DNA from: Candidatus Multivoradales bacterium
GTDB taxonomy: Bacteria > Acidobacteriota > Thermoanaerobaculia > Multivoradales > Multivoraceae
Direction of reading: 5' to 3'
Length of the DNA: 64,000 bases
Assembly (NCBI GenBank): GCA_965223325.1
Contig: CBDCWI010000002.1
Coordinates: 1,152,001-1,216,000 of the forward strand
A model generated the notes under the pieces. It made no database searches. It was not told the DNA's origin and saw only the letters and a program-made list of their open reading frames with translations. The translations under genes were made by a program, and so were the position numbers. Shown piece after piece: positions 1,880 through 40,055 of this stretch; the first letter of the stretch is position 1; the number at the start of each line of letters is the position of its first letter.

Positions 1880-3487
1880 GTGCGACTAAGCTCGACCGGA
1901 AGCGCTTCAGAACGGGTACGGACGCTACAACGGATGGGTTTACCGAACAGAGACCAGAACTCTGGCAGCGCCAGGGAGCGCCGATCGGCGATCACGCTGG
2001 TGCTGGCGCTTCTTCTTCTCGCGGCCTGGATGGTCGCACCGCGGCTGTTCCAACACTGGAATCGAACGACGCCGGTCTCCTTCGAGTCCTTTCCGATCGA
2101 GGGTGACCTGACACCTGAGCGCAACTTCGCCTTTTCGCACGAGGGCATCGAGCTCAACGGCTGGTCGCCGCGTGCCGTCTCCGTAACGGCGGGAGGCAAA
2201 CCTCTCGAACGCACGTCGGCTCGGCGGGTGCGAAAAACGGGCGACGGAACTTTTCATATCGGCCAGGGCGGTCGCCTTCTCGTGGCTCCTCCCGGCAACC
2301 AGAACCCCACCGCGCTCGAGATCGAGGTCAGCCAGCCCCGCGACCTCCCACCTCGCTCCCTGGTGGGCGCGCTGTCGATCTTCGTCTTTCTGCATGTCGG
2401 CACGTTGGTGGCGCTGGCGCGCCAGCTGTGGACCAGGCCACTCCTGCGCGCGCTCCCGCCGGTGATCCTGGCGATGCTCAGCGGTCTGCTCACCTTGCAC
2501 GCGGCCAATGCACACCTACCGCCCTCACGGGCCGACTCGATCGGGGAGCGCCAACGACAGTTCGCCCAAGCGATAAAGAACGAGAGTCCGCCGCCCGATA
2601 CGGTCTTCCTCGGGTCGAGTGTGATCTACAGGCAACTCGATCCGGCGACTTTCGACGACGCTTTCGCTCACGCGAAGCGTCCCCGGCGCTCATTCAACCT
2701 GGGAGCCGCCGGGGCGAGAATGCCTGAGGTCCTGCACCTCGCAAGCTGGGCGCTAGAGCGCGGCGAGGGCCAGATCGACCTGCTGGTGGTCGAACCACGG
2801 GACAGGCCGTTCGATCCCCTGGGCACCCGCCGACTCGCCGCCCGCAGCGTCGCCTGGCACACCTCTCGCGCGCTCTGGATGGTCGCCCGCGGCCTCCACC
2901 AGGACGGAATCGGAGCCGAGGAGGCTGCTCTTCGCATGAGCGAGCACTTGCCCGCCTGGGGTAGGAACACGCTCGCGCTCGGCCGCGGGCTCGACGGTCT
3001 CGACGCGCTCTTCGCAGTCAAACCCCGCTGGATCAACCCGAGTCGACGCGGCTTTCTGCCGCTCGACCTGCAGCCGAACCTGGCCAGGCGCCACGCCACG
3101 TTTCTTGACCGACCCAAGACCTGGGAGAGAGCCGTCGAAGAGCTGCTCGCCAGCCACGGCACCGGCACGCCGACCAGTGCTTTCGAACTCGAGATGTTCC
3201 TTCAACTCGAACACCTGGCCGCGGAGCACGGTGCCGACGTCGTCTGGCTGATCGCCCCCCACATCACACGACGACCCAATATGGTCTACGCCCACGATCA
3301 AGGACACGTCGAGACCCTCTTGCGCTTCGACGACCCACAAGAACACTCTCGCTACTACGACCTCTCGGCCCGCTTCGACGCCGGACATCTCAACCAGCGC
3401 GCCGCCCTCCTTTGGAGCCGCGACGTTGCAGAGCGCATTCTCGCCCTTGAACGTGACTCCGAGCGAGTCAGCGAGCTCCAGCCGTGA
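1880..3487 (+). CDS. Membrane-anchored SGNH-like (AlgJ/DltD-like) acyltransferase partner
   Basis: TM segments; VFLGSS block I, SFNLG block and D-x-x-H-L-N (FDAGHLN) motif; stop overlaps the MBOAT start (GTGA). Confidence 0.7.
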   Translation: MRLSSTGSASERVRTLQRMGLPNRDQNSGSARERRSAITLVLALLLLAAWMVAPRLFQHWNRTTPVSFESFPIEGDLTPERNFAFSHEGIELNGWSPRAVSVTAGGKPLERTSARRVRKTGDGTFHIGQGGRLLVAPPGNQNPTALEIEVSQPRDLPPRSLVGALSIFVFLHVGTLVALARQLWTRPLLRALPPVILAMLSGLLTLHAANAHLPPSRADSIGERQRQFAQAIKNESPPPDTVFLGSSVIYRQLDPATFDDAFAHAKRPRRSFNLGAAGARMPEVLHLASWALERGEGQIDLLVVEPRDRPFDPLGTRRLAARSVAWHTSRALWMVARGLHQDGIGAEEAALRMSEHLPAWGRNTLALGRGLDGLDALFAVKPRWINPSRRGFLPLDLQPNLARRHATFLDRPKTWERAVEELLASHGTGTPTSAFELEMFLQLEHLAAEHGADVVWLIAPHITRRPNMVYAHDQGHVETLLRFDDPQEHSRYYDLSARFDAGHLNQRAALLWSRDVAERILALERDSERVSELQP

Positions 3488-4899
3488 TCTTCACCGAGTT
3501 TCGCTTCCTCGCCTTCTTCGGGCTCGTCCTCGCGGTCTACTGGTCACTCGAAGGCAATCGCCTGCGCAAGATCTGGCTGCTGGCGGCGAGCTATGCGTTC
3601 TACGCCGCCTGGGACTGGCGCTTTTTGTCGCTCATTCTCATCTCGACGCTGGTCGACTACGCGGTAGGCACGCGACTGGCGACAACCGACTCGGAGTCCC
3701 GCCGCCGCGCCCTCCTCCTCGCCAGCCTGGTCACCAACCTCGGGCTACTCGGCTTTTTCAAGTACTTCGGTTTCTTCGTCGACTCGGCGGTCGATCTGGG
3801 TTCATTTCTCGGGTTCTCGCTCAGCCGACCAACGCTCGAGATCGTGTTGCCGGTCGGCATCAGCTTCTACACCTTCCAGACGCTCAGCTACACCATTGAC
3901 GTCTATCGTCGCGGCCTCGAGGCGACGCGCAACCTGCTCGACCTGGCGCTGTTCGTCGCCTTCTTCCCGCAGCTGGTGGCGGGGCCGATCGTGCGCGCTT
4001 CGTACTTCCTGCCGCAGCTGCACGAGGAGCGCCGCTGGCAGAACGTCGCCGCGCGTTCTCACCTGGTCTTGTTCCTCATCGGCTTTGCCAAGAAGGCCTG
4101 CATCTCCGACAACATCTCGCCCTTCGTCGACAGCTACTTCGCCGCCCCGGAGGGCTGGAGCGCAGGGGCCGCGTGGCTAGCGGTGTTGCTCTACGCCATT
4201 CAGATCTACTGCGACTTCTCCGGTTACTCGGACATGGCGATCGCCACCGCTGGACTTCTGGGCTACGACCTGGGACCGAACTTTCGTTCCCCCTACGTCG
4301 CCCTCAACCCGCGGGACTTCTGGCAGCGTTGGCACATCAGCCTATCGACCTGGCTGCGCGACTACCTGTACATCCCACTGGGCGGCAACCGCGGCAGCAC
4401 GATCTTCACTTACCGCAACCTGATGCTCACCATGCTGCTCGGAGGGTTGTGGCACGGGGCCGCCTGGCACTTCGTCGTCTGGGGTTTCCTGCATGGCCTG
4501 GCACTCTGCCTGCACCGGCTGGTCCGTACTGACGGGAAAGAGCAGGGGGCCTCTCCTCTCAAACGCATTGCCTCGACCCTCGCCATGCAGTACTGGGTGT
4601 GCCTGGCGTGGATCTTCTTCCGAGCGGAGAGCTGGGGCGATGCGATGGTCACCGCAAAGGCCTGGTTGTTCTGGAGCAGCCCGGGCTCTCTGACTCTCGA
4701 TGCGCGCTGGTGGTGGTTCATCGCCGCCTTCGCGCTAGCCCACTGGGTGGGCGCTCGCTACGCCAGCACCGATGAACCCTTCCTTCCCGGCGCACGGCTC
4801 CCACAGCCCCTTTTTGCAGCCGCCTACGGCGTCGCCACCGCCATCGTCCTCCTCTTCGTTCAGGTCGACGTACAGCCCTTCATCTACTTCCAGTTCTAG
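3484..4899 (+). CDS. MBOAT family O-acyltransferase (AlgI/PatA/DltB-like)
   Basis: LPVGISFYTFQ, FFPQLVAGPIVR, IYCDFSGYSDMA, FWQRWHISLSTWLRDYLYIPLGG, GLWHGA and C-terminal FIYFQF. Confidence 0.95.
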   Translation: MIFTEFRFLAFFGLVLAVYWSLEGNRLRKIWLLAASYAFYAAWDWRFLSLILISTLVDYAVGTRLATTDSESRRRALLLASLVTNLGLLGFFKYFGFFVDSAVDLGSFLGFSLSRPTLEIVLPVGISFYTFQTLSYTIDVYRRGLEATRNLLDLALFVAFFPQLVAGPIVRASYFLPQLHEERRWQNVAARSHLVLFLIGFAKKACISDNISPFVDSYFAAPEGWSAGAAWLAVLLYAIQIYCDFSGYSDMAIATAGLLGYDLGPNFRSPYVALNPRDFWQRWHISLSTWLRDYLYIPLGGNRGSTIFTYRNLMLTMLLGGLWHGAAWHFVVWGFLHGLALCLHRLVRTDGKEQGASPLKRIASTLAMQYWVCLAWIFFRAESWGDAMVTAKAWLFWSSPGSLTLDARWWWFIAAFALAHWVGARYASTDEPFLPGARLPQPLFAAAYGVATAIVLLFVQVDVQPFIYFQF

Positions 4900-5893
4900 T
4901 GAGGTCCGTGGTTTTCGACCAATGCGCTGCGGACCTTGATTGGGTAGGCGGTGCTGTTGGAATTCCCGCCTCGACGTCTCGGCCTGTCGTGTACCACGGA
5001 CCTCACTAGAGTCACATCTGCGGCGCAAGCGCTCCAAAGCGCGAGCCGCCTTCACTGGCGCTCGCCTTGCAAAAGCTGCCACCGACTTCGGTCGCCTGGC
5101 GCGCGCCGCGGATTCCTGCCTCCGATGGAACCGACCTCGACGCTCACCACTCAACTGCCCCCCGTGGTTTTCGACCAATGCGCTGCGGGCCTTGATTGGG
5201 TAGGCGGTGCTGTTGGAATCCCCACCTCGCCGTCTCGGCCTGTCGTGTACCACGGACCTCACTAGAGTCACATCTGCGGCGCAAGCGCTCCAAAGCGCGA
5301 GCCGCCTTCACTGGCGCTCGCCTTGCAAAAGCTGCCACCGACTTCGGTCGCCTGGCGCGCGCCGCGGATTCCTGCCTCCGATGGAACCGACCTCGACGCT
5401 CACCACTCAACTGCCCCCCGTGGTTTTCGACCAATGCGCTGCGGACCTTGATTGGGTAGGCGGTGCTGTTGGAATCCCCACCTCGCCGTCTCGGCCTGTC
5501 GTGTACCACGGACCTCACTAGAGTCACATCTGCGGCGCAAGCGCTCCAAAGCGCGAGCCGCCTTCACTGGCGCTCGCCTTGCAAAAGCTGCCACCGACTT
5601 CGGTCGCCTGGCGCGCGCCGCGGATTCCTGCCTCCGATGGAACCGACCTCGACGCTCACCACTCAACTGCCCCCCGTGGTTTTCGACCAATGCGCTGCGG
5701 ACCTTGATTGGGTAGGCGGTGCTGTTGGAATTCCCGCCTCGACGTCTCGGCCTGTCGTGTACCACGGACCTCACTAGAGTCACATCTGCGGCGCAAGCGC
5801 TCCAAAGCGCGAGCCGCCTTCACTGGCGCTCGCCTTGCAAAAGCTGCCACCGACTTCGGTCGCCTGGCGCGCGCCGCGGATTCCTGCCTCCGA
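4895..5893. repeat. Tandem array of a 256-bp unit (~3.9 copies); first copy bounded by a perfect 18-bp inverted repeat with CTAG ends
   Basis: CCGTGGTTTTCGACC recurs at 4906, 5162, 5418 and 5674. TCTAGTGAGGTCCGTGGT (4895-4912) is the reverse complement of ACCACGGACCTCACTAGA (4993-5010). Units differ by only a few substitutions. Confidence 0.95.
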
Positions 5894-5937
5894 CTTAACA
5901 CGGAGGCTTCTCTTCCCCGGATCCCAGGACCCTCTTC

Positions 5938-6876
5938 ATGAAGCAGCCACCGAACCCTCTCTCCGTCGCCATCTCCGGCGCCAGCGGTCTGGTTGGCCGC
6001 GGACTCATTCCGCGGCTCGAAGCGGCCGGCCACCAAGTGCTCCGCCTCGAACGACGAGGTGAGCCCGGCGCCGACCCGGCCCGCGTCTTGTGGAGTCCGG
6101 AGACTGGCGTTCGTGAGCCCGAGAAACTCGAGGGCGTCGATGCCATCGTTCATCTCGCCGGCGAAAGCATCGCGGGCGGGCGCTGGACCCGGCGCAAGCG
6201 GCAGGAGATTCGCCGGAGCCGCATCGTTGGCACCCGCAAGCTGGTCGCCTCGCTCGCTACCCTCGAGCGACCGCCGGCTAGCTTCATGTGCGCGTCGGCG
6301 GTGGGCTACTACGGCAACACCGACGAGCGAGCCGACACGCCGGTCGATGAGCGTTCGCCCGCCGGCCGCGGGTTTCTCGCCGAGGTGTGCGTGGACTGGG
6401 AGAAGGAGGCGGAGTGTGCCCGGGACTTCGGCGCGCGGGTCGTTCGCCTTCGGTTTGGCGTCATTCTGTCGTCAACTGGTGGGGCGTTGGCCAAGATGCT
6501 GCCGGCACTTCGCAGCGGCCTCGGGGGACGGCTCGGCGGCGGGCGGCAGATCATGGCGTGGATCAGCCTGCGGGACTGCGTCAACGCCATCGAAACCCTG
6601 CTCTCTAGAGATGACCTCTCGGGAGCCTTCAACCTGACCGCGCCGCGGCCCGCCAGCAACCGCTGTTTCACCGCACGGTTGGGCGGTGCCCTGGGGCGCC
6701 CGACACCGCTCGCGGTTCCTGCCGCGCTCCTTTCTGCGACTTTCGGCGGCATGGCCCGCGAGACACTCCTGGCCTCGAACGACGTTCGGCCCACGCGCCT
6801 CCTGGAAGCGGGGTTTGAGTTCGAGCACAGCGAACTCGACAACGCCCTCTCAGAGCTCCTCGCTCAGACGGACTAG
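5938..6876 (+). CDS. TIGR01777-family NAD-dependent epimerase/oxidoreductase
   Basis: AISGASGLVG Rossmann motif; VHLAGESIAGGRW, ASAVGYYG, FLAEVCVDWE, LRFGVIL; C-terminal PTRLLEAGFEF. Confidence 0.92.
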   Translation: MKQPPNPLSVAISGASGLVGRGLIPRLEAAGHQVLRLERRGEPGADPARVLWSPETGVREPEKLEGVDAIVHLAGESIAGGRWTRRKRQEIRRSRIVGTRKLVASLATLERPPASFMCASAVGYYGNTDERADTPVDERSPAGRGFLAEVCVDWEKEAECARDFGARVVRLRFGVILSSTGGALAKMLPALRSGLGGRLGGGRQIMAWISLRDCVNAIETLLSRDDLSGAFNLTAPRPASNRCFTARLGGALGRPTPLAVPAALLSATFGGMARETLLASNDVRPTRLLEAGFEFEHSELDNALSELLAQTD

Positions 6877-7676
6877 GAGTCGCGCTCGAGGGCCGCCCAA
6901 CGCCGGAAGCCGCCCTCCGAGTCGATCACCTGGCCAGTGATCCAGGCGGATTCATCGCTCGCCAACCAGCTCACCAGCCGGGCCACGTCCTCAGGCTGCC
7001 CCCAACGACGGGCGGGGAACATCTCGGCGACCTGCTCGTGCACAGGCCCTTCGAGCCAGCCGCTATCGACGGGTCCGGGATTGATGCAGTTGACGGTGAT
7101 TCCGGAGTCGATCACCGCATCGGCGAGAGTCATGGTCATCTGATGGATCGCACCTTTGCTCACCGCGTAGGCGATCTCGCCGCTCATCGGGCCGATGTGC
7201 TGACCGCTGGTAAAGAGAATCGCCCGACCTCCGGGACCGGGCGCGCGGCGCGCAGCCAGCGCCTGGATCAAGAGCACCGAAGCACGCACATTGACCGCCC
7301 AACAGCGGTCGAGCTCGGCGGCAGAGACCTCGCCGAGCCCATGATGGGAGGAGCGCGCGTGGTTGGCGACCAGCACATCGAGCGCTCCATAGGTGTCGAA
7401 GGCCAGCCCCACCAGCTCGGCCGGACTCTCGGGGCACTCCAGGTCGCGCTCGACCCAAACCAGCCTGCCCGCCTCTCGTGCGTCAGACAGCGTGGCCACG
7501 GCATCGTCGCCGGTGCTATCCCGGCCCCAGGGCATCTCAGCGTCGTGGGCGTGCCAGCCACTGGCTAGAACACGCATCCCGTCACGTAGCAGACGGTCGA
7601 CCAGCGCCCGGCCGATGCCTTTCTGGCGACTGACCCCGGTGACCAGCGCGACTTTCGTGTGCGGACCTTCGGACAT
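6873..7676 (-). CDS. Short-chain dehydrogenase/reductase (SDR)
   Basis: ALVTGVSRQKGIG, YAVSK catalytic motif, NCINPGPVDSGW, WITGQVI. Confidence 0.93.
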   Translation of the reverse strand: MSEGPHTKVALVTGVSRQKGIGRALVDRLLRDGMRVLASGWHAHDAEMPWGRDSTGDDAVATLSDAREAGRLVWVERDLECPESPAELVGLAFDTYGALDVLVANHARSSHHGLGEVSAAELDRCWAVNVRASVLLIQALAARRAPGPGGRAILFTSGQHIGPMSGEIAYAVSKGAIHQMTMTLADAVIDSGITVNCINPGPVDSGWLEGPVHEQVAEMFPARRWGQPEDVARLVSWLASDESAWITGQVIDSEGGFRRWAALERDS

Positions 7677-7696: not shown

Positions 7697-7862
7697 CTAG
7701 TACCCCGTACCATTGAAACGGATAGTGGCTGAGCGGATGATCGTGCTCGAGATCAAGGCGTCACGACAGAGGCATATTGGTGATCTGTCGAGGAGTGACA
7801 ACACAGAGATCGAGCGCGAGGACCGCGCAGACGCTGTGCGTTTCAATGGTACGGGGTGCTAG
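7697..7862. mobile_element. 166-bp MITE-like element with 24-bp terminal inverted repeats and CTAG termini
   Basis: CTAGTACCCCGTACCATTGAAACG (7697-7720) vs CGTTTCAATGGTACGGGGTGCTAG (7839-7862), one mismatch; nested internal stems; no credible ORF. Confidence 0.85.
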
Positions 7863-7863
7863 G

Positions 7864-8658
7864 TCACTGCAGCGAGAAACTGATCGTCAGGTTCATGTAG
7901 ACCGAAACCGGCTTCCCCTCGAGCGTCGCCGGCTCATAGCGCCAGTTGCTGACCGTCTGCACCGCCGACTCCTCAAGCCCCTCCGGCAGTCCCTTGACGA
8001 CCTTGACGTTGGTCACGTTGCCCAACGAGTCGACGATTGCCTGCAGGATCACCACGCCCTGAACGCGGGCCTTGCGGGCTTCTTCGGTGTAGTGCGGTTG
8101 CGGCGCATGCACCTTTTTCGGCGGCTGCACGTTGCCTTCGATGTACATCGGCCCGGGCTTGCCAGCTCCCGGTGGTGCCGGCGGCACGTCGAGCAGATCG
8201 CCGATCTCGGGCGCATCGATCAGCGGCACTTCGACCGGCGCCTCGCGCGGAATGGGCTCGGGGTCGTCAGGCGTCGGATCGGGCATCGGGATCCGGCGTG
8301 CCTTCTTCTTCTCGACCGGCTTGGCGCGCGGCGCCTGCTTGGGAGGCGGCTGGAAGCGCACCGGCTCGACCATGTAGACCGAGCGGTTCGAAGAAATCTG
8401 CTGCGGCTCGCTGAGAGGAGTGGGCAACACCCAGAAACCGAAGGCCAGGATCAAATGAAAGGCGATCGCCGCGGCGACCGCGCGCCGGAAGCGCTTGGCG
8501 TCTGCTGGGTCTTCTTCGGGCAGGTAGGCACCGCCGCCGAGGCGCACCGGTGCCTCGCCGCCCAACCGGAAGGAGGACGCCGAATGCGGACTCGACCGCA
8601 CCTGGATGCGAGGTCCCCGGGAGCCACCGCCGAGGCGGCTTTCAATCTGGATCGCCAT
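7864..8658 (-). CDS. tonB: TonB-family energy transducer
   Basis: Single TM helix, Pro-rich linker, TonB C-terminal domain (PHYTEEARKARVQGVVILQAIVD...WRYEPATLEGKPV). Confidence 0.9.
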   Translation of the reverse strand: MAIQIESRLGGGSRGPRIQVRSSPHSASSFRLGGEAPVRLGGGAYLPEEDPADAKRFRRAVAAAIAFHLILAFGFWVLPTPLSEPQQISSNRSVYMVEPVRFQPPPKQAPRAKPVEKKKARRIPMPDPTPDDPEPIPREAPVEVPLIDAPEIGDLLDVPPAPPGAGKPGPMYIEGNVQPPKKVHAPQPHYTEEARKARVQGVVILQAIVDSLGNVTNVKVVKGLPEGLEESAVQTVSNWRYEPATLEGKPVSVYMNLTISFSLQ

Positions 8659-9492: not shown

Positions 9493-9644
9493 CGACAGCC
9501 CGCTCTCGGACTTGCTACGTGGTGCCGCTCAGTCCGCGGTCTCGACCGGCTCATCGCCGGACGTTATCGCAACGCCTGGAGACACTCCGCAGCGCGTTCC
9601 GTCGAACGGATCCTATTACGACGAGTATTCCTGGAGGAATCCCC

Positions 9645-10601
9645 ATGCTTTCAAAGTCCAAGATCGAGATTCTCGTTCTGGCCCTGGTCGCTCTGCTGGT
9701 CGCTGTACCGGCAGCAGCGCAAGAAGACGAAGAGTTCCCGCCCAACGCTGAAGCCGGCAAGTGCTACGCCAAGTGCGTCATCCCGGCTCAGTACGAGACC
9801 TACACCGAGCAGGTTCTCAAGAAAGACGCCGCCAAGCGGCTCGAGGTCGTTCCGGCGACCTACGAGACCGTCACCGAGCAGGTCGTCACCCGCGAAGCGT
9901 CCTCACGCCTCGAGGTGGTCCCTGCCCAGTACGAGAACGTCACCGAGCAGGTGATGATCAAGCCTGCCAGCAGCCGGGTCGAGGTCGTTCCGGCGACCTA
10001 CGAGACGGTCACCGAAACCGTCACCGTGTCGCCTGCCAGCACCCGCTGGGAAAAGACCAGGGGCGACGCTTCCTGCCTGTCGGCCAACCCCGAAGATTGC
10101 CGCGTCTGGTGCCTGGTCACCGTTCCGGCAGTCACTCGTACGGTCAGCAAGCGGGTCCTCAAGACCCCGGCCACCACTCGTGAAATCGAGATCCCGGCCG
10201 AGTACAAGACGGTCACCCGTCGCGTCGTCAAGGTTCCGGCTTCGACCCGCACGGTCGAGATCCCGGCCGAGTACGGCACCATCACCAAGACGGTGCTCAA
10301 GAGCCCGGCAACCACTCGCGAGATCGAGATCCCGGCCGAGTACCAGACGGTCACCCGCACACGTCAGGTGTCGGCCGCTGGTTCGACCGAGTGGCGTGAG
10401 GTCCTCTGCGCTGCCGACATCACCCAGGCACGCATTCGTACCATCCAGCGCGCGCTCAAAGAACGCGGCTACGACCCGGGGCCGATCGACAACATCCTCG
10501 GCTCCCAGACCCGCGCCGCGCTCCTGCGCTTCCAGCGCGACAACAAGCTGCCGGAAGGCAGTCTTGACCTCGAAACTCTAAAGGCGCTCGGCGTCAACTG
10601 A
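9645..10601 (+). CDS. Secreted beta-repeat protein with C-terminal peptidoglycan-binding domain
   Basis: GGAGG RBS before ATG 9645; signal peptide; ~24-aa repeats (VPATYETVTEQV / IPAEYKTVTRRV); PG_binding_1-like IQRALKERGYDPGPIDNILGSQTRAALLRFQ. Confidence 0.88.
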   Translation: MLSKSKIEILVLALVALLVAVPAAAQEDEEFPPNAEAGKCYAKCVIPAQYETYTEQVLKKDAAKRLEVVPATYETVTEQVVTREASSRLEVVPAQYENVTEQVMIKPASSRVEVVPATYETVTETVTVSPASTRWEKTRGDASCLSANPEDCRVWCLVTVPAVTRTVSKRVLKTPATTREIEIPAEYKTVTRRVVKVPASTRTVEIPAEYGTITKTVLKSPATTREIEIPAEYQTVTRTRQVSAAGSTEWREVLCAADITQARIRTIQRALKERGYDPGPIDNILGSQTRAALLRFQRDNKLPEGSLDLETLKALGVN

Positions 10602-15100: not shown

Positions 15101-15916
15101 GTGCCGCTTCACCAACTCCTCCTCCTGGCCGCAGTCGGCGTCGTCGCTGGCACGCTGAACGTGCTCGCCGGCGGTGGTTCGCTGCTCACGCTGCCGGTTC
15201 TGGTGTTTTTCGGACTTCCCGCGGGCGTTGCCAACGGCACCAATCGCATCGGCATCCTGCTCCAGAACATCGTCGCCTCCTGGAGTTTCCGAAGAAGCAA
15301 CGTGCTGGTGGCAGGCGACGTCTGGTGGATGGTCGTTCCCGCGACGCTCGGCGCCGGCCTGGGAACTCTCCTGGCGCTCGAGATCGGCGATCAGGCACTG
15401 CTTCGCCTGCTGCCCTGGCTGATGGTGGGAGTCGTCATGGCCACCCTGCTCTGGGATCCGGCCAAGAAGAACACCAGGTCCACCGCAAAGGCTGGTCGCG
15501 AAGACCCCAGGGCTCTTGACGACACCGCGCATGCCGGGGTGACCGACAGCCAGGGTGGGGCGTCGCGCTTTGCCGTCGCGTTCGGCTTCTTCGTGGCGGG
15601 CGTCTACGGTGGCTTCATCCAGGCGGGCGTCGGCTTCCTGATCCTGGCGGTGATCTCACTGCTGGGTCTCGACCTGGTGCGCGGCAACGCCTTCAAGGTG
15701 GTGGTCGTCCTGGCGTTCACCTGCCTGTCGCTCTTCTTGTTCGCCGCCGACGGGCAGGTCCAGCTGGTCCCCGGTCTGGCGCTCGGCACCGGCACGATGC
15801 TCGGCGGCTTCCTGGGTGCTCGGCTGACGGTGCTCAAGGGGCACCGTTTCGTGCGGCTGGTGGTCGTTCTCACGGTGATCGCCTTTGCGGCTCGCCTGTG
15901 GTGGAGCGCACGTTGA
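15101..15916 (+). CDS. TauE/SafE (sulfite exporter) family membrane protein
   Basis: AGTLNVLAGGGSLLTLP, ANGTNR, GVYGGFIQAGVGF motifs. Confidence 0.92.
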   Translation: MPLHQLLLLAAVGVVAGTLNVLAGGGSLLTLPVLVFFGLPAGVANGTNRIGILLQNIVASWSFRRSNVLVAGDVWWMVVPATLGAGLGTLLALEIGDQALLRLLPWLMVGVVMATLLWDPAKKNTRSTAKAGREDPRALDDTAHAGVTDSQGGASRFAVAFGFFVAGVYGGFIQAGVGFLILAVISLLGLDLVRGNAFKVVVVLAFTCLSLFLFAADGQVQLVPGLALGTGTMLGGFLGARLTVLKGHRFVRLVVVLTVIAFAARLWWSAR

Positions 15917-16488
15917 GCACCAGTGGCCGCGAAGACACTGCGCCAGTCGAAGACACTGCGCCAGTCGAAGACACCATGCACCACGAAGACACCGTGCACG
16001 ATGAAGACTCGGTGCTGCGCGCTGGGCAGCTCTCCGCCGGCTCACTCGAGGAGCTGTTCTCGGGCTACGGACTCCTGGTGCGCTGGGTAGCACCCGATGA
16101 GGACATCCCGGGCAGCTACTGGGGCGCTCCCGAGGCCGGCCTGCTCGGCAACGTCCTGTGGGTGCGCGCCGACACGCCGGTGCACTCCGCACTCCACGAA
16201 GGCTGCCACTGGATCTGCATGGATGAGCAAAGGCGACGCCATCTCGACACCGATGCCGGTGGAACGGAAATCGAGGAGTCCGGCGTCTGCTATCTGCAGA
16301 TCTTGCTTGCCGACTCTCTCGACGGCGTCGGCAGCGCGCGCCTGCAGGCCGATATGGACGCCTGGGGCTACAGTTTCCGGCTTGGCAGCACCCGCCGTTG
16401 GTTCCTGGAAGATGCCGAAGATGCGCGCCTTTGGCTCCATTTACGCGACCTCCTGCCTGGTGCACCACTTGTTGACGAAGATTCGTAG
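15913..16488 (+). CDS. Conserved hypothetical protein with HExxH motif
   Basis: IPGSYWGAPEAGL, VHSALHEGCHWICM, DMDAWGYSFRLGS; TTG 15913 overlaps the upstream TGA; start uncertain. Confidence 0.75.
   Translation: MSTSGREDTAPVEDTAPVEDTMHHEDTVHDEDSVLRAGQLSAGSLEELFSGYGLLVRWVAPDEDIPGSYWGAPEAGLLGNVLWVRADTPVHSALHEGCHWICMDEQRRRHLDTDAGGTEIEESGVCYLQILLADSLDGVGSARLQADMDAWGYSFRLGSTRRWFLEDAEDARLWLHLRDLLPGAPLVDEDS
15931..16014 (+). repeat. 18-bp in-frame tandem repeat, 5 degenerating units
   Basis: GAAGAC starts at 15931, 15949, 15967, 15985 and 16003; the first two units are identical (GAAGACACTGCGCCAGTC). Confidence 0.85.
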
Positions 16489-18674: not shown

Positions 18675-20270
18675 CTAGACATAGAGCAGCACTCCGCGGA
18701 CCTGCTCCCCCGTCATGCGCTCGAGGGCATAGACGTACCACCCGAGTTGCCGACGGTAGGTGAGGGTGCGCTCCTCTGAAGCGACTGGATCGCGGTCGGT
18801 CTTGAAGTCGACCACTGTCCAACCTGATTCGTCCCGGTAGCAGAGGTCGATGGTGCCTTCGAGCAGCCGATGCTCATCGAGGTAATGGTGAAACGGCACC
18901 TCGCGACGCATCTCCTTCGCCTGGCGTGCTGCCTCGAGGAGGGCGTGAGCGAGCGCCCGCCGGACCGCATCGGCTGCCAGCTCGACATCGTCCTCGGAGG
19001 CCCCCAGGAGACGCGCGCGTAGCCGGGTCGCCTGGATGACAGTCGCCTGATCGGAGGCCAGATCGATATCGGCGAGTACTGCGTGCACCAGGCTTCCGAA
19101 CGCCTTTCCACCGGCTGCCCGCACACCTTGTGACGATCCGTCCGGCAAGTCCACCCGCACGATCTCGATCACCGGCGGGCCTGGGGGTTCATCGTCGAGC
19201 TCGGTGACCACCTCGATGCGGTGCGATGGAGTCACACCGGTCGCTCGAGCTCGGGCAAGCTCGCTCTGCCACTGCTCGAAGGCACAGACGCCGGAGGCTG
19301 CGATTCCTTCGTCGTCTTCGACCAGCAGGCTCTCCTGGCGCAGGCCATAGTCGGGTGGCGGAACCTGGGCGAGCGCTGCGGGGTCCCACCACACGACGTC
19401 CCACGACGGCGCTTCGTCGGCGTCGTGTTGACGGTCTCCCGAAAGGCGATAGAGACCCGGGCGAACCGACTCCTCGGCGCGGCCGTCGTACTCCTGCGGC
19501 CGTGCCAGCACGCTCGCCTCTCCAAACGGCGGACAACCAAGGTGCTCGGCGGAGCGACCGTCGCGCCACGAGCCCTTCGGCGGGTAGACCGCGTGATTGA
19601 GCGGCTCAACCCAACCGGGGCGTAGAACGTCGCCCACCGCTGGCACGACGAGCATGTCGCGCGCGCGCGTCGCTGCGACGTAGGCGACTCGTAGACCCTC
19701 GGCGCGCTCGCGTGCCAGCTCGATGTCGCGGTTCTCGAGCAACTCGATCGGCGTCAATCCGAGGAGTCGTTGCACCGCTGTCTGGTTGCGGTTGTCGATC
19801 GTCCGTGCCGGTTGGCGGGCGGTGAGCTTGGCAGTCATGTCGGCGAGAAGGACAATCGGGAATTCGAGCCCCTTCGCGGTGTGGACCGTCATCAGGCGCA
19901 CGCCTTCTGCCTCGGGCTCGATCAGCGGTGACTCGGAAGCGTTTCGGCGCTCGGCCTCGCGGTCCAGGGTCTCGACGAACCCCCGAAACGACCGCCCGCC
20001 GCCCGCTTCGTAGCGCCGCGCGAGGTCGAGCACCCGGCCGACGTTGGCAAGTACCTGCTGCCCCGCCGGCCGCAGGGCGAAGGCAGCATGGGCGCGGGTC
20101 GCACTCAAGAGCGCCTGCAGCGTCTCGACGATCGCTCGACGATTGCGCTGCCGATGCAACGTACCGAGCAGGAGTAGCGCGTCATGAAGCGGCAACAGGT
20201 CAGGGTCGAGGGTGTTGTCGGCATCGATCTGAAGCGCATAGAGCGGATGCAGGCGACGGGTCGTTTTCCC
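18675..20270 (-). CDS. addA: AddA/UvrD-like helicase-nuclease, C-terminal part (after frameshift)
   Basis: Helicase motifs V/VI (MTVHTAKGLEFP, YVAATRARD) and PD-(D/E)xK nuclease (GTIDLCY...VVDFKT...QLGWY); frame is open back to the GGGAAAA at 20270-20264. Confidence 0.85.
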   Translation of the reverse strand, partial: GKTTRRLHPLYALQIDADNTLDPDLLPLHDALLLLGTLHRQRNRRAIVETLQALLSATRAHAAFALRPAGQQVLANVGRVLDLARRYEAGGGRSFRGFVETLDREAERRNASESPLIEPEAEGVRLMTVHTAKGLEFPIVLLADMTAKLTARQPARTIDNRNQTAVQRLLGLTPIELLENRDIELARERAEGLRVAYVAATRARDMLVVPAVGDVLRPGWVEPLNHAVYPPKGSWRDGRSAEHLGCPPFGEASVLARPQEYDGRAEESVRPGLYRLSGDRQHDADEAPSWDVVWWDPAALAQVPPPDYGLRQESLLVEDDEGIAASGVCAFEQWQSELARARATGVTPSHRIEVVTELDDEPPGPPVIEIVRVDLPDGSSQGVRAAGGKAFGSLVHAVLADIDLASDQATVIQATRLRARLLGASEDDVELAADAVRRALAHALLEAARQAKEMRREVPFHHYLDEHRLLEGTIDLCYRDESGWTVVDFKTDRDPVASEERTLTYRRQLGWYVYALERMTGEQVRGVLLYV

Positions 20271-22366
20271 TCGGGCACAGCCTGGCGGAATCGCAACAGT
20301 TCGTCATCGGTGATGCCAAAGAGAGCACCTCGTAGGGTGGCGTACACCGACAGCTCGTCGTCGGGCCACTCGATGGCAGAAAGCGCCGCGCGTAGCGTCT
20401 CGACCTCTTCGCGCTCGAAGAAGCTGCGCGACCCCACCAGTAGATGCGGAATACTGAGCCGGTCGAAAGCACGCACATAGGGCCGCACGACGTCGTTACC
20501 CCAGGAGACGAAGCGGCGAAACAACAGGCAGATGTGGCGCGGTTCGATATCGATCACCCCGCGCCGCGGGTCGCGCACCTTGAAGGCCGTCGCACCGCTG
20601 TCATCGCGTTCGAGCAACCAGGCAACGAAAGCGGCGGTGGTCTCGGGGTAGCAGTCGTTGATCGCGCTCTCGGCGATTCTCCTGACACCGTAGGGTCGCG
20701 GCGCAGGCAAGACGATCACCGAGGGTTGGTCCGCAATTGCCGGCCGCGATTCATGCAGCGGAACATAGGCGGGGTTGCCGATGTCCTGCGAGCCGTCCAT
20801 GACCTCCGCAAAGGCGTGATTGATGACCCGCTGAATGTCGGGCACTGACCGGAAGCTCTGGGTCAGATGCAGAACGGCAACGCCGGCCTCGCGAAGGTCG
20901 CGCTCGATCTCCTGATAGAGCCGCACGTCGGCACGCCGGAAGCGATAGATCGACTGCTTCGGATCACCAACCAGAAACAACTTGCCGGGCGCGGGCTTGA
21001 CCTGGCGCCAATCCGGGGGCTCGGCCTCGGCCGCTTCTCCAGTAGCCAGCGCTTCTTCTTCACCCGCGAGCAGGAACAGAATCTCGGCCTGCAGGGGGTC
21101 GGTGTCCTGAAACTCGTCAACGAAAATATGGGTGATGCGGCGTTGCAAATGGCGGCGCACATCGGCACGGTCACGCACCAGGTCACGCGTCAGGATGAGA
21201 AGGTCCTGGAAGTCGAGCCGACCCGAGCGCCGCTTGACCCCGTCGTAGTTGGCGACGACTGGCCAGAGATCGGCACGCAACGCGACCGCGAGATCCGCAT
21301 CGACACAGTCGCGAAAGCGCTCGAGTGCTTCGATCAAACCGTCTTTGAGCTCGATGACCTGCTGGCGAGCGATTCCCTCTGCCAGCGGTCCACTGCCTTT
21401 GCGGGGGCGATTCCAACCGCTCAGATCGCGGCAGAGTGCGACCAGCCGCGCCTCGAGCGCGTCGTCGTCCCGCGGTGATTCCTGGTCGGAGGGGTGGTGC
21501 AGAGAAGGGCGCCGAATCCAGTTCGCCAGGAGTGTCACCGGCTGAAGATCCGAAACCAGAATGTCGCGCCGCGGCGCGGGTTCGATCAGGTCGGCCAAAC
21601 GCAGGACCCGCTCTAGCAGCTTGTCGATCGCCCAGGCGCGTTCGAACGGCTCCCGGCGCCAGTCGCCCGGGTAGTCGCGCCACTCGACGAGGTTCCAGGC
21701 GGCGTCCCGCAGGCGCTCGAGCGGCGCGCCGAAGCGTGAGCCACCTTCCAAGGTCAAGCGCTCGAGGGCCCGCCGCACACCTTCGGGGAGATCGACGAGT
21801 CGCTCTGGAATGAACTCGTCGAAAGCGCGCGCGAAGAGCTCTCGGTCTTCGCCGTCGGCCACTTCGCGAAAGGCCGGGTCGATCCCCGCCTCGATCGGCC
21901 GCTCGCGCAGAATCTCGGCACAGAACGAGTGAATGGTTCCGATGCGCGCTTCCTCGAGGTGGGCCGTCGCCTCTTCGAGCCGGCGCGATTCGTCGGGGTC
22001 GGTACTCGCCAGGCGCTCCTGCTCCAGGCGCTCGCGAAGCCTCAGCTTGAGCTCGCCTGCGGCCTTGCGGGTAAACGTCACCGCCACCACAGACGCCGTG
22101 GTTGCACCGCGACTGCCGGTCGCCAGCACACGCACCAGCCGTTCGACGAGTACCGTGGTCTTTCCGGTTCCAGCAGCGGCTTCGACCAGCAGGCTCTCGT
22201 CGAGAGAGTTGCTGATGCGATCACGCACACCCTGGTCGACGGCATCGCCGCGCGGCGAATCAGCTCCCCCCGACGGAGCACTCTCACCACTGGCTGACCC
22301 AGCCTCTTTCGTAGAACCTTCTTCTGAGGGCCGACCGTTGAACGGCACAACGTTGTCTTCGCTCAC
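20105..22366 (-). CDS. addA: AddA/UvrD-like helicase-nuclease, N-terminal part (frameshifted)
   Basis: EAAAGTGKT Walker A, TFTRKAA, TIHSFC, VDEFQDTD, VGDPKQSIYRFR; GTG 22366 with GGAGG overlaps the addB stop. Confidence 0.88.
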   Translation of the reverse strand: MSEDNVVPFNGRPSEEGSTKEAGSASGESAPSGGADSPRGDAVDQGVRDRISNSLDESLLVEAAAGTGKTTVLVERLVRVLATGSRGATTASVVAVTFTRKAAGELKLRLRERLEQERLASTDPDESRRLEEATAHLEEARIGTIHSFCAEILRERPIEAGIDPAFREVADGEDRELFARAFDEFIPERLVDLPEGVRRALERLTLEGGSRFGAPLERLRDAAWNLVEWRDYPGDWRREPFERAWAIDKLLERVLRLADLIEPAPRRDILVSDLQPVTLLANWIRRPSLHHPSDQESPRDDDALEARLVALCRDLSGWNRPRKGSGPLAEGIARQQVIELKDGLIEALERFRDCVDADLAVALRADLWPVVANYDGVKRRSGRLDFQDLLILTRDLVRDRADVRRHLQRRITHIFVDEFQDTDPLQAEILFLLAGEEEALATGEAAEAEPPDWRQVKPAPGKLFLVGDPKQSIYRFRRADVRLYQEIERDLREAGVAVLHLTQSFRSVPDIQRVINHAFAEVMDGSQDIGNPAYVPLHESRPAIADQPSVIVLPAPRPYGVRRIAESAINDCYPETTAAFVAWLLERDDSGATAFKVRDPRRGVIDIEPRHICLLFRRFVSWGNDVVRPYVRAFDRLSIPHLLVGSRSFFEREEVETLRAALSAIEWPDDELSVYATLRGALFGITDDELLRFRQAVPEGKRPVACIRSMRFRSMPTTPSTLTCCRFMTRYSCSVRCIGSAIVERSSRRCRRS

Positions 22367-25300: not shown

Positions 25301-25842
25301 GCCAGTGCCGCGATCGCGAGGTGCAGGATGCCGGCCCGATCGGTCATGTCAGAGGCGTCGAGTAGCACCAGGTAGCGCGCGTAGAGTGCCGCTAGATCCT
25401 GCCCGGCCGGCCCGTCGAGCGTACCGAGAGCCTCTGCCTTGGCGTCGGCGAGGCGCAGCTCTCCGAAGGTGCGGTCGAGAGCCAGCGGGAATCCCGGCAG
25501 ATCGACCATCGAAGAAAGCTCTCGGAGGGCGCCCTCCTCTTGCAGCTGGGCCAGAGCGCGCACAGCCAGCGCGCGACTCGAGAGCACCGGGAGCGGTGAC
25601 CAGCCACGTTCGGCCAGCGCCGGTCCGGCAAGTTCATGTGCCAACTGCCACGGCGTATAGGGTCGCCACCCCCACAACGAGGTGTCGAGCGAACGAGTAG
25701 CCGCGCGCAGGAAGTCGTTCGCTGCTCGATGGGTCGGGGCTATGAGAAGTCCGGCCCCGCAACGCGCGCCGAAGGTCTCGAGAGCTGCCGTCGCGCGCCG
25801 CAGACGGTGGTCGGCCCGGCGGGAGAGGATGAGATCGAGCAT
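22363..25842 (-). CDS. addB: AddB-like inactive-helicase/PD-(D/E)xK nuclease with Fe-S cysteines
   Basis: SPTALQHFAACPYRF, RGSLFH, RGSIDLVE...DYKTG, Q..VY, CRWCDYRPVC; start taken at ATG 25842. Confidence 0.85.
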   Translation of the reverse strand: MLDLILSRRADHRLRRATAALETFGARCGAGLLIAPTHRAANDFLRAATRSLDTSLWGWRPYTPWQLAHELAGPALAERGWSPLPVLSSRALAVRALAQLQEEGALRELSSMVDLPGFPLALDRTFGELRLADAKAEALGTLDGPAGQDLAALYARYLVLLDASDMTDRAGILHLAIAALAAAAKGQAGAGALSTGDLAHCPLIWLDAAPNGRLERQLLAALVIGRRAALSALPPYGSQREVLTSLGLDEFDPLGLTGEGSSDASGVPPESRLQRVQDDVFVPLSSAVASEEASAPDDTLVFFSAPGEGAECVEIVRRVQQLAAAGTPFDRMAILLRQPGAYRPHLEDAFRRAQLPAYWSRGTRRPDPAGRALLALLACASEGLTATRFAEYLSLGQVPQLEDGRPEEAPKVPFVAPVSEQLVLFADSEDEAPVAGGEALEHLDEELLAEELAADSPARAGTLVAPLFWEKALVDASVVGGSDRWRRRLTGRAAELERRARLVEEENELRAAALRRERQRLLDLARFALPLIGRLEGLPEGGSWGEWLSALEDLAVAALRFPRSVLALLKDLAPMSEVRPVSLEQVRQTLGDRLTELRAEPPRRRFGRLYVGSIEDAAARSFETVFLPGLAEGVFPRRALEDPLLLDQQRRRLEEDGIRLELQEDRIQAERQLLHLAVGAAEQQLVVSYPRVDAAEGRERVPSFYALDLLRAADGLLPKLDALARDAAEASARGAGWPAPEDPRSAIDEVEYDLALLRPLLRPLARGEDRAARREQTRGAGRFLLSSNRWLARSLRARAGRWRRGWFPSDGLVEPGAAAAVVLAGHRLSERSVSPTALQHFAACPYRFFLQAIQRLRPRDEIETLEAVDPLTRGSLFHDVQFKLFRELEASELLPVRTDNLDEVMARVDAVLDETAAEYEETLHPAIPRVWRTEVESLRSDLHGFVRYWEGEDWRWQPAYAELAFGLGPLEPGADGRDPASQPEPVKLASGVNVRGSIDLVERQAGGQRFRVTDYKTGRVTRVQARGRWVPIRSGDLRVAGGRVLQPVVYGLAAEAMLARTAGDEAPRQVDSGRLFYCTQRGGYEVVEVPLDERARSSFEKVTATVDDAIAEGFLPAAPDEGACRWCDYRPVCGPYEETRIAKKRRDELLPLVELRRLR

Positions 25843-25916
25843 GGGGCTGCTCTCTTCGTCGCGGCTGGCCACATCAAAGGCGACGATAGCAGGCCGGAGT
25901 GGGTACTCTAGCTGCC

Positions 25917-36599: not shown

Positions 36600-36735
36600 C
36601 CTCTCCGAATCGACCTTCTGAAAGCCTCAAGCCCCGGCGGCACCAGGCGTGGATAAACCGAGATCCAACAGAAGCTTAGACCGATCTTGCGCCGATGTGA
36701 CTTGCGGTCGTACAAGGTGATCAAAGGCTGGGAAG

Positions 36736-39550: not shown

Positions 39551-39552
39551 GG

Positions 39553-39951
39553 GTCTAGCGTTCCCGTGGTTTGCGGCCTTTGGGACGCGCCCGTGTTGGT
39601 GTGAGGTGGTGTTGATGGAGAGACGACCCAGCGATCGAGGTTCGTCGTTACCACGGGAACGCTAGACGTCACATCGGCCGCGCAAGCGGTCCAACGCGCG
39701 GGCCGCCGCCGCAGGCGAACGCCCTGTACCTGCGATCGGCACACTGCAAGGGGCCGGCGCGCGCGGCGGATTCTGGGCTCCGATCGAACGACGGCTCCGA
39801 AGCCAGCGATGCGAAGACCGCCGCGCAGGAGGAGGAGCTGCCCGAATGGCACACGACCGTTGGGGACGCGCCCGTGTTGGTGAGAGGTGGTGTTGATGGA
39901 GAGACGATCCAGCGATCGAGGCTCGTCGTTACCACGGGAACGCTAGACGTC
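39553..39951. repeat. Diverged relative of the 4.9-kb repeat: IR-bounded module + structured module + partial second copy (period ~281 bp)
   Basis: GTCTAGCGTTCCCGTGGT (39553-39570) / ACCACGGGAACGCTAGAC (39650-39667) perfect IR; ~90 bp repeated at 39863-39951; GTCACATC...GCGCAAGCG.TCCAA.GCGCG.GCCGCC...GGCGCGCGC.GCGGATTC shared with 5011-5115. Confidence 0.9.
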
Positions 39952-40055
39952 GTCGAAACCGGAAATCAACAAATTCAAAGATTTCTATTCTTCGTGCTAA
40001 GATAGACGCGGTCCGAGCCCCACACCCACCGACCCCCCGGCCCGCCTACCGCCCG

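What the first reader, a model, noticed from the sequence alone, without database searches (positions are those of the whole stretch)
4895..5893. 256-bp tandem array of a bipartite, CTAG-bounded, structured element that starts in the MBOAT stop codon
Seen: about 3.9 head-to-tail 256-bp units, each made of module A (CCGTGGT...ACCACGGACCTCACTAG) and module B (GTCACATC...GGATTCC, plus linker). Only the first unit has the full 18-bp left inverted repeat, and its CTAG supplies the gene's TAG. Later units keep just CCGTGGT, so the array has one left end and four right ends. Units 1 and 4 share GGAATTCCCGCCTCGACG, units 2 and 3 share GGAATCCCCACCTCGCCG, and unit 2 has a private SNP, which argues against a simple assembly stutter. 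Inference: this is a non-autonomous mobile or RNA-producing element amplified by unequal recombination or via a circular/rolling intermediate. I cannot assign it to a named IS, REP, CRISPR or retrozyme family.
Basis: partly seen in the sequence, partly recalled or inferred. Interest (0 to 1): 0.85.

Follow-up and report, generated by a model that had tools for sequence, protein, structure and literature searches.

The report
Tandemly repeated CTAG-bounded hairpin repeat element
A small non-coding hairpin-shaped repeat element that landed in the stop codon of a gene has been copied four times head to tail, which is a local curiosity of a familiar kind rather than a new type of genetic system.

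Summary
Window 4906-5893 holds 3.9 head-to-tail copies of a 256-bp unit at 98-100% identity. There is one complete left inverted-repeat arm and four right arms, and the first CTAG contains the MBOAT stop codon.

The array is four copies of one bipartite element separated by three identical 36-bp spacers (4x220 + 3x36 = 988). The element is hairpin module A, bounded by CTAG, plus structured module B.

A diverged copy (68% identity) lies at 39555-39951. It also carries a left-truncated second hairpin copy. A third CTAG-bounded foldback lies at 7697-7862. All three sit 0-4 nt after a stop codon.

The MBOAT C-terminus is native: 118 of 120 homologues end in the same residues. The protein is unchanged.

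No Rfam family, ribozyme, coding domain or transposase was found. No copy turned up in the plasmid or phage collections, in one pattern scan of reference genomes, or in three protein-proxy searches.

Best reading: a lineage-specific MITE/REPIN-like element, probably in an Acidobacteriota genome, later amplified by unequal recombination. The mobilising enzyme class is unresolved (DDE IS630/IS5-like or HUH RAYT/TIRYT-like). Tandem reiteration of palindromic repeats together with flanking DNA is already described. Interest is modest.

The parts
3484..4899 (+). MBOAT (AlgI-like) gene. Its stop TAG is part of the CTAG that bounds the element.
   Evidence: Pfam PF03062 E 1.5e-29. 118 of 120 listed homologues end in ...QF, as this protein does, so the gene end is native.
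4896..5009 (+). Module A, complete copy: a 114-bp CTAG-to-CTAG foldback with 17 perfect (25 nt at 88%) terminal inverted repeats.
   Evidence: I13. RNA fold -59.8 kcal/mol, z -6.7. ssDNA fold z -5.7.
5010..5125 (+). Module B, copy 1: 116 nt closed by an 11-13-bp terminal stem. Homology to the second locus ends at ...CTCCGA.
   Evidence: 71% identity to 39668-39783, E 5e-15. Consensus fold has 29 pairs, 4 of them compensatory. The sequence after ...CTCCGA is no more similar between the loci than shuffled sequence (1765 of 5000 shuffles).
5126..5161 (+). 36-bp spacer, copy 1. Copies 2 and 3 are at 5382-5417 and 5638-5673. It is absent from both flanks of the array and from the second locus.
   Evidence: Similarity to the element's own centre is only marginal (153 of 3000 shuffles).
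5162..5381 (+). Unit 2: A lacking its first 10 nt (5162-5265) plus B (5266-5381). Carries variant type II and one private SNP.
5418..5637 (+). Unit 3: truncated A (5418-5521) plus B (5522-5637). Variant type II.
5674..5893 (+). Unit 4: truncated A (5674-5777) plus B (5778-5893). Variant type I, 100% identical to unit 1. No spacer follows.
5886..5917 (+). Terminator-like hairpin of 7 bp followed by a T-rich tail. Its left arm is the last 8 nt of the final B module.
   Evidence: This is a consensus scan only; function was not shown.
5938..6876 (+). Downstream gene: NAD-dependent epimerase with DUF1731.
39555..39783 (+). Second family member: complete A2 hairpin (39555-39665, 18 of 18 perfect arms) plus B2 (39666-39783). 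It starts 4 nt after the stop of a DUF481 gene (38669-39550).
   Evidence: 67.7% over 232 nt, E 1e-23; I17. ssDNA fold z -5.2.
39784..39951 (+). Locus 2 spacer (about 76 nt), then a second A2 copy lacking its first 24 nt (39860-39946, 95% identical to A2), then 5 shared nt.
   Evidence: D4. nhmmer E 1.6e-17.
7697..7862 (.). Third CTAG-bounded foldback: 166 bp with 40-nt arms at 85%. It ends 1 nt after the TGA stop of a TonB_C gene (7864-8658, minus strand).
   Evidence: I1. 23 of 24 terminal bases match. ssDNA fold z -11.6. A 30-nt internal similarity to A2 is reached by 5 of 3000 shuffles. TonB_C E 3.8e-21.

Best explanation
The array is four head-to-tail copies of one roughly 230-bp non-coding, non-autonomous repeat element, separated by three identical 36-bp spacers. 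The element is a CTAG-bounded foldback (module A) joined to a second structured module (B). It belongs to a small lineage-specific family of MITE/REPIN-like palindromic elements. These elements insert at the TA of C-TA-G sites, or 3' of CTAG, and survive just downstream of stop codons.

At this locus the target was the C-TA-G made by the last Phe codon and the TAG stop of the MBOAT gene. The gene product is therefore untouched.

The array is secondary. One initial duplication had its left breakpoint 10 nt inside the left hairpin arm and produced element-spacer-element. RecA-type unequal crossing-over between the 220-bp repeats then expanded it to four copies. The I-II-II-I pattern of variants fits a 3-SNP patch arising in a middle unit, followed by one more unequal exchange.

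The internal copies have lost the left arm and no longer form the hairpin, so they are dead ends for a terminal-repeat transposase. Any present-day effect is probably a by-product at the RNA level: a highly structured 3' untranslated region ending in a terminator-like hairpin.

Shown here: the repeat anatomy, the inverted repeats, the paralogous loci, the native stop codon, and the absence of coding or ribozyme signal. Inferred: transposition, the enzyme class, and the recombination pathway.
For: Anatomy.

4x220 + 3x36 structure: the spacer is absent from both flanks. Inter-locus homology stops at ...CTCCGA, which is exactly where the array stops.

Family: a second locus at 67.7% identity over 232 nt, E 1e-23, covers both modules. 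There is a third CTAG-bounded foldback. 10 of the 49 CTAG sites in the window are element ends, while CTAG is depleted overall (49 found, 89.7 expected).

Flanks: CTAG N0-2 GTCAC occurs only at the right ends of these elements (6 sites at 3 loci, 0.54 expected).

Native gene ends: 118 of 120 MBOAT homologues end in ...QF. The TonB_C domain ends at residue 263 of 264.

Hairpins: z -5.7, -5.2 and -11.6 for the complete copies, against -0.25 and +1.04 for the truncated copies.

Non-coding: the period of 256 is not a multiple of 3. No Pfam domain in the 6 ORFs inside the array and locus 2. GC3 is 0.62, against about 0.8 for neighbouring genes.

Literature, passages read: IS630-family elements insert at TA, and a cited title states a preference for TA within CTAG (PMC2170065). 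An IS5-like MITE inserts after CTAG with a 4-nt duplication (PMC3189936). [quoted passage not shown]

Assembly: the window's MBOAT protein is recorded on a 4,546,094-bp contig, which favours a well-resolved assembly.
Against: No transposase of any class is in the window (45 ORFs scanned), so mobility is inferred only from anatomy.

No empty site and no further copy could be found. The single reference-genome scan returned one hit, and that hit is the expected chance match inside a 709-aa ORF. Plasmids and phages gave none. Three spurious-ORF proxy searches gave nothing usable.

CTAG is its own reverse complement. It could therefore be part of the inverted repeat rather than a target duplication.

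The 36-bp spacer has no identified source, so the initial duplication is not a clean tandem duplication.

A left-truncated second copy recurs at the second locus. A purely random local accident does not predict that, and it hints at an element-driven or hairpin-driven process.

Module B has 4 compensatory pairs out of 29 between its two copies. That is also compatible with a selected RNA structure.
Confidence: 0.55

Rival explanations
1. Element-driven reiteration by a single-strand HUH tyrosine transposase (RAYT/TIRYT or IS200/IS605-like). In this reading the mobile unit is the 256-nt CTAG-to-CTAG segment (B, spacer, truncated A). It inserts 3' of a CTAG and brings a new CTAG at its own 3' end, so it regenerates its target and arrays grow head to tail.
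For: All unit boundaries can be drawn at CTAG: 4896, 5006, 5262, 5518, 5774. In the internal units the last 10 nt, ending in CTAG, are unpaired 3' of a hairpin foot. The second locus reads as a hairpin plus exactly one 281-nt CTAG-to-CTAG unit. TIR-associated tyrosine transposases form a sharply defined group in Acidobacteria, and their TIR repeats occur as dimers and clusters (PMC3733652, section 16 read). [quoted passage not shown] The nearest homologues of the window's MBOAT are named Thermoanaerobaculia/Acidobacteriota.
Against: No Y1/HUH transposase domain in the 45 window ORFs scanned. The tag is CTAG, not the GTAG or CGTC of the described REP superfamilies; CTAG occurs 0 times in that paper's text. 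The last unit at locus 1 is a partial unit (B only, no CTAG at its end), which this model does not explain. At locus 2 the repeat runs 5 nt past CTAG (D4).
Confidence: 0.15
2. Module B, with or without A, is a selected structured RNA. It could be a 3'-UTR stabiliser or terminator element, or a small RNA gene. The array would then be a multi-copy RNA locus.
For: B is the best conserved part between the loci (71%; 35 of 40 bases at its 5' end). Its consensus fold keeps 58 of 58 cells paired, with 4 compensatory pairs against 0 in every slid control. All three elements lie 0-4 nt after stop codons. At loci 1 and 2 the element has the same orientation as the upstream gene. A terminator-like hairpin uses the end of the last B.
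Against: Only two distinct B sequences exist, and the structure was derived from them. The shuffle control reaches the observed values in 36 of 500 trials. The B2 fold alone is no better than shuffles (z +0.44). The opposite strand gives a comparable consensus fold with 3 compensatory pairs. No Rfam match. No promoter-like site in or before the array.
Confidence: 0.15
3. Assembly artefact: the true locus has one or two units, and the assembler mis-expanded a repeat.
For: Units are 98-100% identical. The stretch between variant sites in successive units is about 215 nt, longer than short-read k-mers, so unit order could not be resolved from short reads alone (inference).
Against: Units carry an ordered set of variants including one private SNP. 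The contig is 4.55 Mb. A structurally parallel but much diverged duplication exists at a second locus.
Confidence: 0.05
4. Retrozyme-like or viroid-like tandem repeat that yields circular RNA through self-cleaving ribozymes, or a rolling-circle (IS91/Helitron-like) product.
For: Head-to-tail units of viroid-like size. One left end and several right ends.
Against: No hammerhead, twister, HDV-like, hatchet, pistol or hairpin ribozyme hit, even at E up to 10. No reverse transcriptase or Rep domain in the window. No relatives in the phage or plasmid collections.
Confidence: 0.03

Closest known systems
Bacterial MITEs derived from TA/CTAG-targeting DDE insertion sequences (IS630/Tc1-mariner family; IS5-family MITEs such as MITEPsy1)
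   Same: Short (114-166 bp), non-coding, with terminal inverted repeats and intergenic. Flanked on both sides by TA within CTAG. Occurs as related copies at several loci.
   Different: No cognate transposase and no empty site could be found. The tips after CTAG are not conserved among the three elements. Module B is attached to A at two loci. The copy here is tandemly reiterated.
REP / REPIN / BIME clusters and TIR repeats mobilised by RAYT or TIRYT tyrosine transposases
   Same: Extragenic palindromic doublets that fold into one long stem-loop, carry a conserved terminal tetranucleotide, and lie mostly downstream of coding regions. Clusters consist of dimers reiterated in tandem with flanking DNA (PMC3733652).
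   Different: The tag is CTAG rather than GTAG or CGTC. The arms are not 20-40-nt REP palindromes. Only three loci were seen. No RAYT or TIRYT gene is in the window.
[quoted passage not shown]
   Same: A modular, non-coding, structured intergenic repeat in which a module is present in a variable number of tandem copies.
   Different: No sequence relationship. Here the reiterated unit is 256 bp and contains one terminal arm plus a 36-bp spacer, not a 45-bp internal module.

Membership tests
MITE (non-autonomous DDE transposon) | Terminal inverted repeats | tested here: met
   Perfect arms of 17 and 18 nt in A1 and A2 (A1: 25 nt at 88%; I13, I17); arms of 40 nt at 85% in the third element.
MITE (non-autonomous DDE transposon) | Small size and no coding capacity | tested here: met
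   114, 111 and 166 bp. No Pfam domain in the 6 ORFs inside the array and locus 2. The period of 256 is not divisible by 3.
MITE (non-autonomous DDE transposon) | Target-site duplication (TA or CTAG) | tested here: inconclusive
   All 3 elements are flanked by CTAG on both sides. CTAG is palindromic, so it may be part of the repeat instead. No empty site was available.
MITE (non-autonomous DDE transposon) | Multiple dispersed copies in the genome | tested here: inconclusive
   3 loci in 64 kb. The rest of the genome could not be searched.
MITE (non-autonomous DDE transposon) | Autonomous partner with matching ends | not testable with these tools
   No transposase in the window. The source genome is not in the searchable collections.
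REP/REPIN/BIME (RAYT-mobilised) | 20-40-nt palindromic unit with a GTAG or CGTC tag | tested here: not met
   The tag is CTAG, and the arms are not self-contained REP palindromes. Definition taken from the PMC3733652 abstract and passages.
REP/REPIN/BIME (RAYT-mobilised) | Clusters of dimers reiterated in tandem with flanking DNA | tested here: met
   compare.
REP/REPIN/BIME (RAYT-mobilised) | Associated RAYT/TIRYT gene | not testable with these tools
   None among the 45 window ORFs. Genome-wide status is unknown.
Retrozyme / ribozyme-bearing tandem repeat | Self-cleaving ribozyme in each unit | tested here: not met
   Rfam 15 at E up to 10 on 4500-6300 and 39400-40100 returned only sub-threshold hits to IRES_L-myc, RMST_8, p27_CRE and isrG.
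CRISPR array | Short repeats separated by unique spacers | tested here: not met
   The repeats are 220 bp and the three 36-bp spacers are identical.
Any Rfam family | Score at or above the gathering threshold | tested here: not met
   0 matches in the whole window.

The most novel reading that the evidence does not exclude
The reiteration is made by the element's own transposition chemistry rather than by generic recombination. A single-strand (HUH, TIRYT-like) transposase of this acidobacterial lineage inserts CTAG-ended units 3' of CTAG. Each insertion recreates its own target and so builds head-to-tail arrays with one complete left arm and many right ends, independently at two loci. That would be a natural record of how REP/BIME-type arrays are born.
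Probability: 0.12. Interest if true: 0.6.

Novelty: new member of a known kind. Interest (0 to 1): 0.3.

Why it matters
If the main reading holds, this adds a lineage-specific family of CTAG-bounded foldback repeats in a poorly sampled acidobacterial lineage. It is also a clean example of a stop codon serving as a transposon target without harm to the gene. The array would be a likely length-variable marker, and its hairpins may shape the 3' end of the MBOAT transcript. The only point of wider interest is the recurrence of 'complete copy, spacer, left-truncated copy' at two diverged loci. If that is element-driven, it would bear on the unsettled question of how clustered palindromic repeats (BIME-like arrays) arise.

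Tried and rejected
1. Rfam at gathering threshold on the whole window and at E up to 10 on both loci: only sub-threshold noise.

It is a 27-nt match inside a 709-aa ORF of a Gemmatimonadota MAG, with no further similarity. That equals the roughly one chance hit expected. Solo A copies, and B copies differing at any of the 20 specified positions, were never searched for in that collection.

3. blastn (distant mode) of unit 1 and of locus 2 against plasmids, and of unit 1 against phages: no match.

4. Spurious-ORF proxies for the repeat in protein collections. The 127-aa minus-strand ORF and the 101-aa locus 2 ORF gave nothing. The 104-aa plus-strand ORF gave one hit, P0121, E 1e-13. It is a translated 83-aa tandem repeat. 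A single unit matches at only 24.6 bits (13 of 36 identities) and does not match locus 2. The E-value sums 11 identical repeats, so I rejected it.

5. My idea that the 36-bp spacer and the 'internal left arms' are conserved between loci: rejected by shuffle tests (1093 of 2000, 1114 of 2000, 428 of 2000 and 831 of 2000; 1765 of 5000).

6. Spacer as templated filler from the element or its flanks: marginal at best (153 of 3000 and 65 of 3000 against the own element; 904 of 3000 or worse against the flanks).

7. B as a degenerate A-type hairpin: 32 of 3000 at locus 1 but 2651 of 3000 at locus 2. Not adopted.

8. The right flank of the third element as a B remnant: not supported beyond GTCAC (1472 of 3000 and 2504 of 3000). 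That GTCAC overlaps the native TonB stop codon.

9. Extra B copies at 20045-20162 and 36691: not convincing (nhmmer E 0.15; reading).

11. Supplementary files of PMC3733652 (TIR sequences of the acidobacterial TIRYT genes) were not opened. They could bear on the HUH rival.
Full report

Tandem Repeats Finder gives one array at 4906-5893: period 256, 3.9 copies, 98% matches, no indels. The direct-repeat tool finds four copies spaced by 256 bp. BLAST of the first unit against the later ones gives 98.4%, 98.8% and 100% identity.

The 16-nt terminal motif occurs once on the plus strand and four times on the minus strand, against 0.28 expected. The 'one left end, four right ends' description is therefore exact.

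The MBOAT ORF (3484-4899, Pfam E 1.5e-29) ends in the TAG of the CTAG at 4896-4899.

The unit alignment confirms the variant pattern: units 1 and 4 share one variant, units 2 and 3 share the other, and unit 2 has one private change.

2. FINER ANATOMY

The 988 bp equal 4x220 + 3x36. A 36-bp segment (5126-5161 and its two copies) lies only between units. It is absent from both flanks.

The first copy of module A (4896-5009) is a complete CTAG-to-CTAG foldback. The other three copies lack its first 10 nt.

Folded as single strands, the complete copies are far more stable than shuffled sequence (z -6.7 as RNA, -5.7 as DNA). The truncated internal copies are not (z -0.25), and their last 10 nt, ending in CTAG, stay unpaired.

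Module B (116 nt) closes on its own terminal stem.

The final B runs into a terminator-like hairpin at 5886-5907 followed by a T-rich tail, 31 nt before the start of the epimerase gene.

3. IT IS A FAMILY, NOT A ONE-OFF

A second locus at 39555-39951 has the same parts in the same order. It has a CTAG-bounded hairpin with perfect 18-nt arms and a B module. Unit 1 aligns across both modules at 67.7% over 232 nt, E 1e-23. After these come a spacer of about 76 nt and a second hairpin copy that lacks its first 24 nt and is 95% identical to the first (D4).

A third CTAG-bounded foldback of 166 bp lies at 7697-7862, with 23 of 24 terminal bases matching and z -11.6. It shares a 30-nt internal stretch with A2, a score reached by 5 of 3000 shuffles.

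All three elements start or end 0-4 nt from a stop codon:
- the MBOAT TAG itself;
- 4 nt after the TAG of a DUF481 gene;
- 1 nt after the TGA of a TonB_C gene on the minus strand.

Ten of the 49 CTAG sites in the window are ends of these elements, and CTAG is depleted overall (49 found, 89.7 expected).

The motif CTAG N0-2 GTCAC occurs only at their right ends, against 0.54 expected. AGTTCTAG occurs only at the left ends of two of them.

Profile searches found no further A or B copies in the window.

4. THE GENE IS UNHARMED

The window's MBOAT protein ends in ...YFQF. So do 118 of the 120 homologues listed. The sequence CAG TTC TAG is therefore native.

The element sits in a pre-existing C-TA-G. 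Whether TA or CTAG was duplicated, the reading frame and the stop are kept.

The same search shows the nearest homologues are only 69% identical. Their sources name them Thermoanaerobaculia or Acidobacteriota. The window's protein lies on a 4.55-Mb contig. The lineage is poorly sampled, and the assembly is probably of high contiguity.

5. WHERE THE FAMILY HOMOLOGY ENDS

Shuffle tests show that sequence after ...CTCCGA is no more alike between the two loci than chance: 1765 of 5000 shuffles score as well. Homology thus stops exactly where the array stops (5893).

So the repeated entity is the element A+B, and the 36-bp spacer is not part of it.

The spacer's source is unknown. Its similarity to the centre of A is marginal (153 of 3000 shuffles) and it has no match in the flanks.

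My earlier idea of a conserved 'internal left arm' failed the same kind of test.

6. WHAT IT IS NOT

- No Rfam family reaches threshold anywhere in the window.
- At E up to 10 only noise appears, and no self-cleaving ribozyme family.
- The 6 ORFs inside the array and locus 2 have no Pfam domain. GC3 there is 0.62, against about 0.8 for neighbouring genes. The 256-bp period shifts the frame at every unit.
- None of the 45 window ORFs scanned carries a transposase, integrase, reverse-transcriptase or Rep domain.

7. SEARCHES OUTSIDE THE WINDOW WERE EMPTY

Plasmid and phage collections gave nothing.

Three protein-proxy searches gave nothing usable. The one hit is a translated unrelated tandem repeat whose E-value was inflated by 11 identical stretches.

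Copy number in the source genome, empty sites and the partner transposase therefore remain unknown.

8. STRUCTURE OF MODULE B

The consensus fold of the two B copies has 29 pairs. All are paired in both copies, and 4 carry compensatory changes. Slid controls have none and pair at only 22-43%.

This rests on two sequences from which the structure was itself derived. The shuffle control reaches the observed values in 36 of 500 trials. The opposite strand gives a similar result. I treat it as suggestive only.

9. MECHANISM

The most economical account has three steps.

Step 1. A CTAG-bounded foldback element of MITE/REPIN type inserted at the C-TA-G of the stop codon. This is inferred. Both IS630-family and IS5-family elements are documented to use this target: PMC2170065, passages and a cited title; PMC3189936, passages and tables.

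Step 2. A first duplication produced element-spacer-element. Its left breakpoint lay 10 nt inside the left arm, and 36 bp of unknown origin sit at the junction.

Step 3. Unequal homologous exchange between the 220-bp repeats raised the number to four.

The I-II-II-I pattern is obtained from I-II-I by one exchange upstream of the 3-SNP patch. The private SNP of unit 2 came later.

The long hairpin is a plausible trigger for the first break, but that is conjecture.

10. THE PUZZLE THAT REMAINS

A left-truncated second copy behind a spacer also occurs at the diverged second locus.

Either this architecture predates the divergence of the two copies and is kept homogeneous within each locus, or the element tends to generate it.

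The second option fits a single-strand HUH transposase that inserts CTAG-ended units 3' of CTAG and so recreates its own target. REP clusters made of dimers reiterated in tandem with flanking DNA, and TIR-associated tyrosine transposases that form a distinct group in Acidobacteria, are both described in PMC3733652 (passages and section 16 read).

Against this option:
- the tag is not GTAG or CGTC;
- no such gene is in the window;
- the last unit at locus 1 is partial.

I give this rival 0.15 and its boldest form 0.12.

11. VERDICT

The finding is real and well described. It belongs to a known kind: palindromic extragenic repeats and MITEs, with tandem reiteration as in REP/BIME clusters or modular BOX elements.

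It is a new, lineage-specific member whose mobilising enzyme cannot be named from this window.

Interest is modest at 0.3. It would rise only if the array proves to be built by the element's own transposition chemistry.

Noticed in passing
window 7697-7862: A 166-bp near-perfect foldback bounded by CTAG (40-nt arms at 85%, ssDNA z -11.6). It lies between the stop of a TonB_C gene (7864-8658, minus strand) and the start of an SDR gene (6873-7676, minus strand). A sigma-70-like promoter match (7713-7741, + strand) lies in its left arm.
   Followed up: partly
window 9781-10357: Two runs of a 69-bp (23-aa) in-frame repeat (66-69% matches) inside ORF 9519-10601, which ends in a peptidoglycan-binding domain. 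This looks like a repetitive cell-envelope protein.
   Followed up: no
window 36691-36701 (minus strand): An exact 11-nt match to the start of module B2, followed by short similar blocks, in the gap between the aminopeptidase and sigma-factor genes. It may be a decayed B fragment or chance (9 matches to the 11-nt pattern at up to 1 mismatch, 6.8 expected).
   Followed up: partly
window 15930-16008: Two overlapping short tandem repeats of an 18-bp unit (2.4-2.5 copies) at the junction of ORFs 15101-15916 and 15898-16488.
   Followed up: no
window 1-64000: CTAG is depleted to about half of expectation (49 found, 89.7 expected). A fifth of the sites that remain are ends of the three foldback elements.
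   Followed up: partly
protein P0121 (not in the window): An 882-aa predicted 'protein' in the public representative set is a translated tandem DNA repeat of 83 aa (249 nt) in about 10.6 copies. It is unrelated to the window element at the single-unit level.
   Followed up: yes
window 18675-26064 (minus strand): Two adjacent large ORFs with PD-(D/E)XK nuclease and UvrD-like helicase C-terminal domains (506 and 1233 aa), resembling an AddAB/RecB-like pair. The 506-aa ORF may be a truncated call.
   Followed up: no
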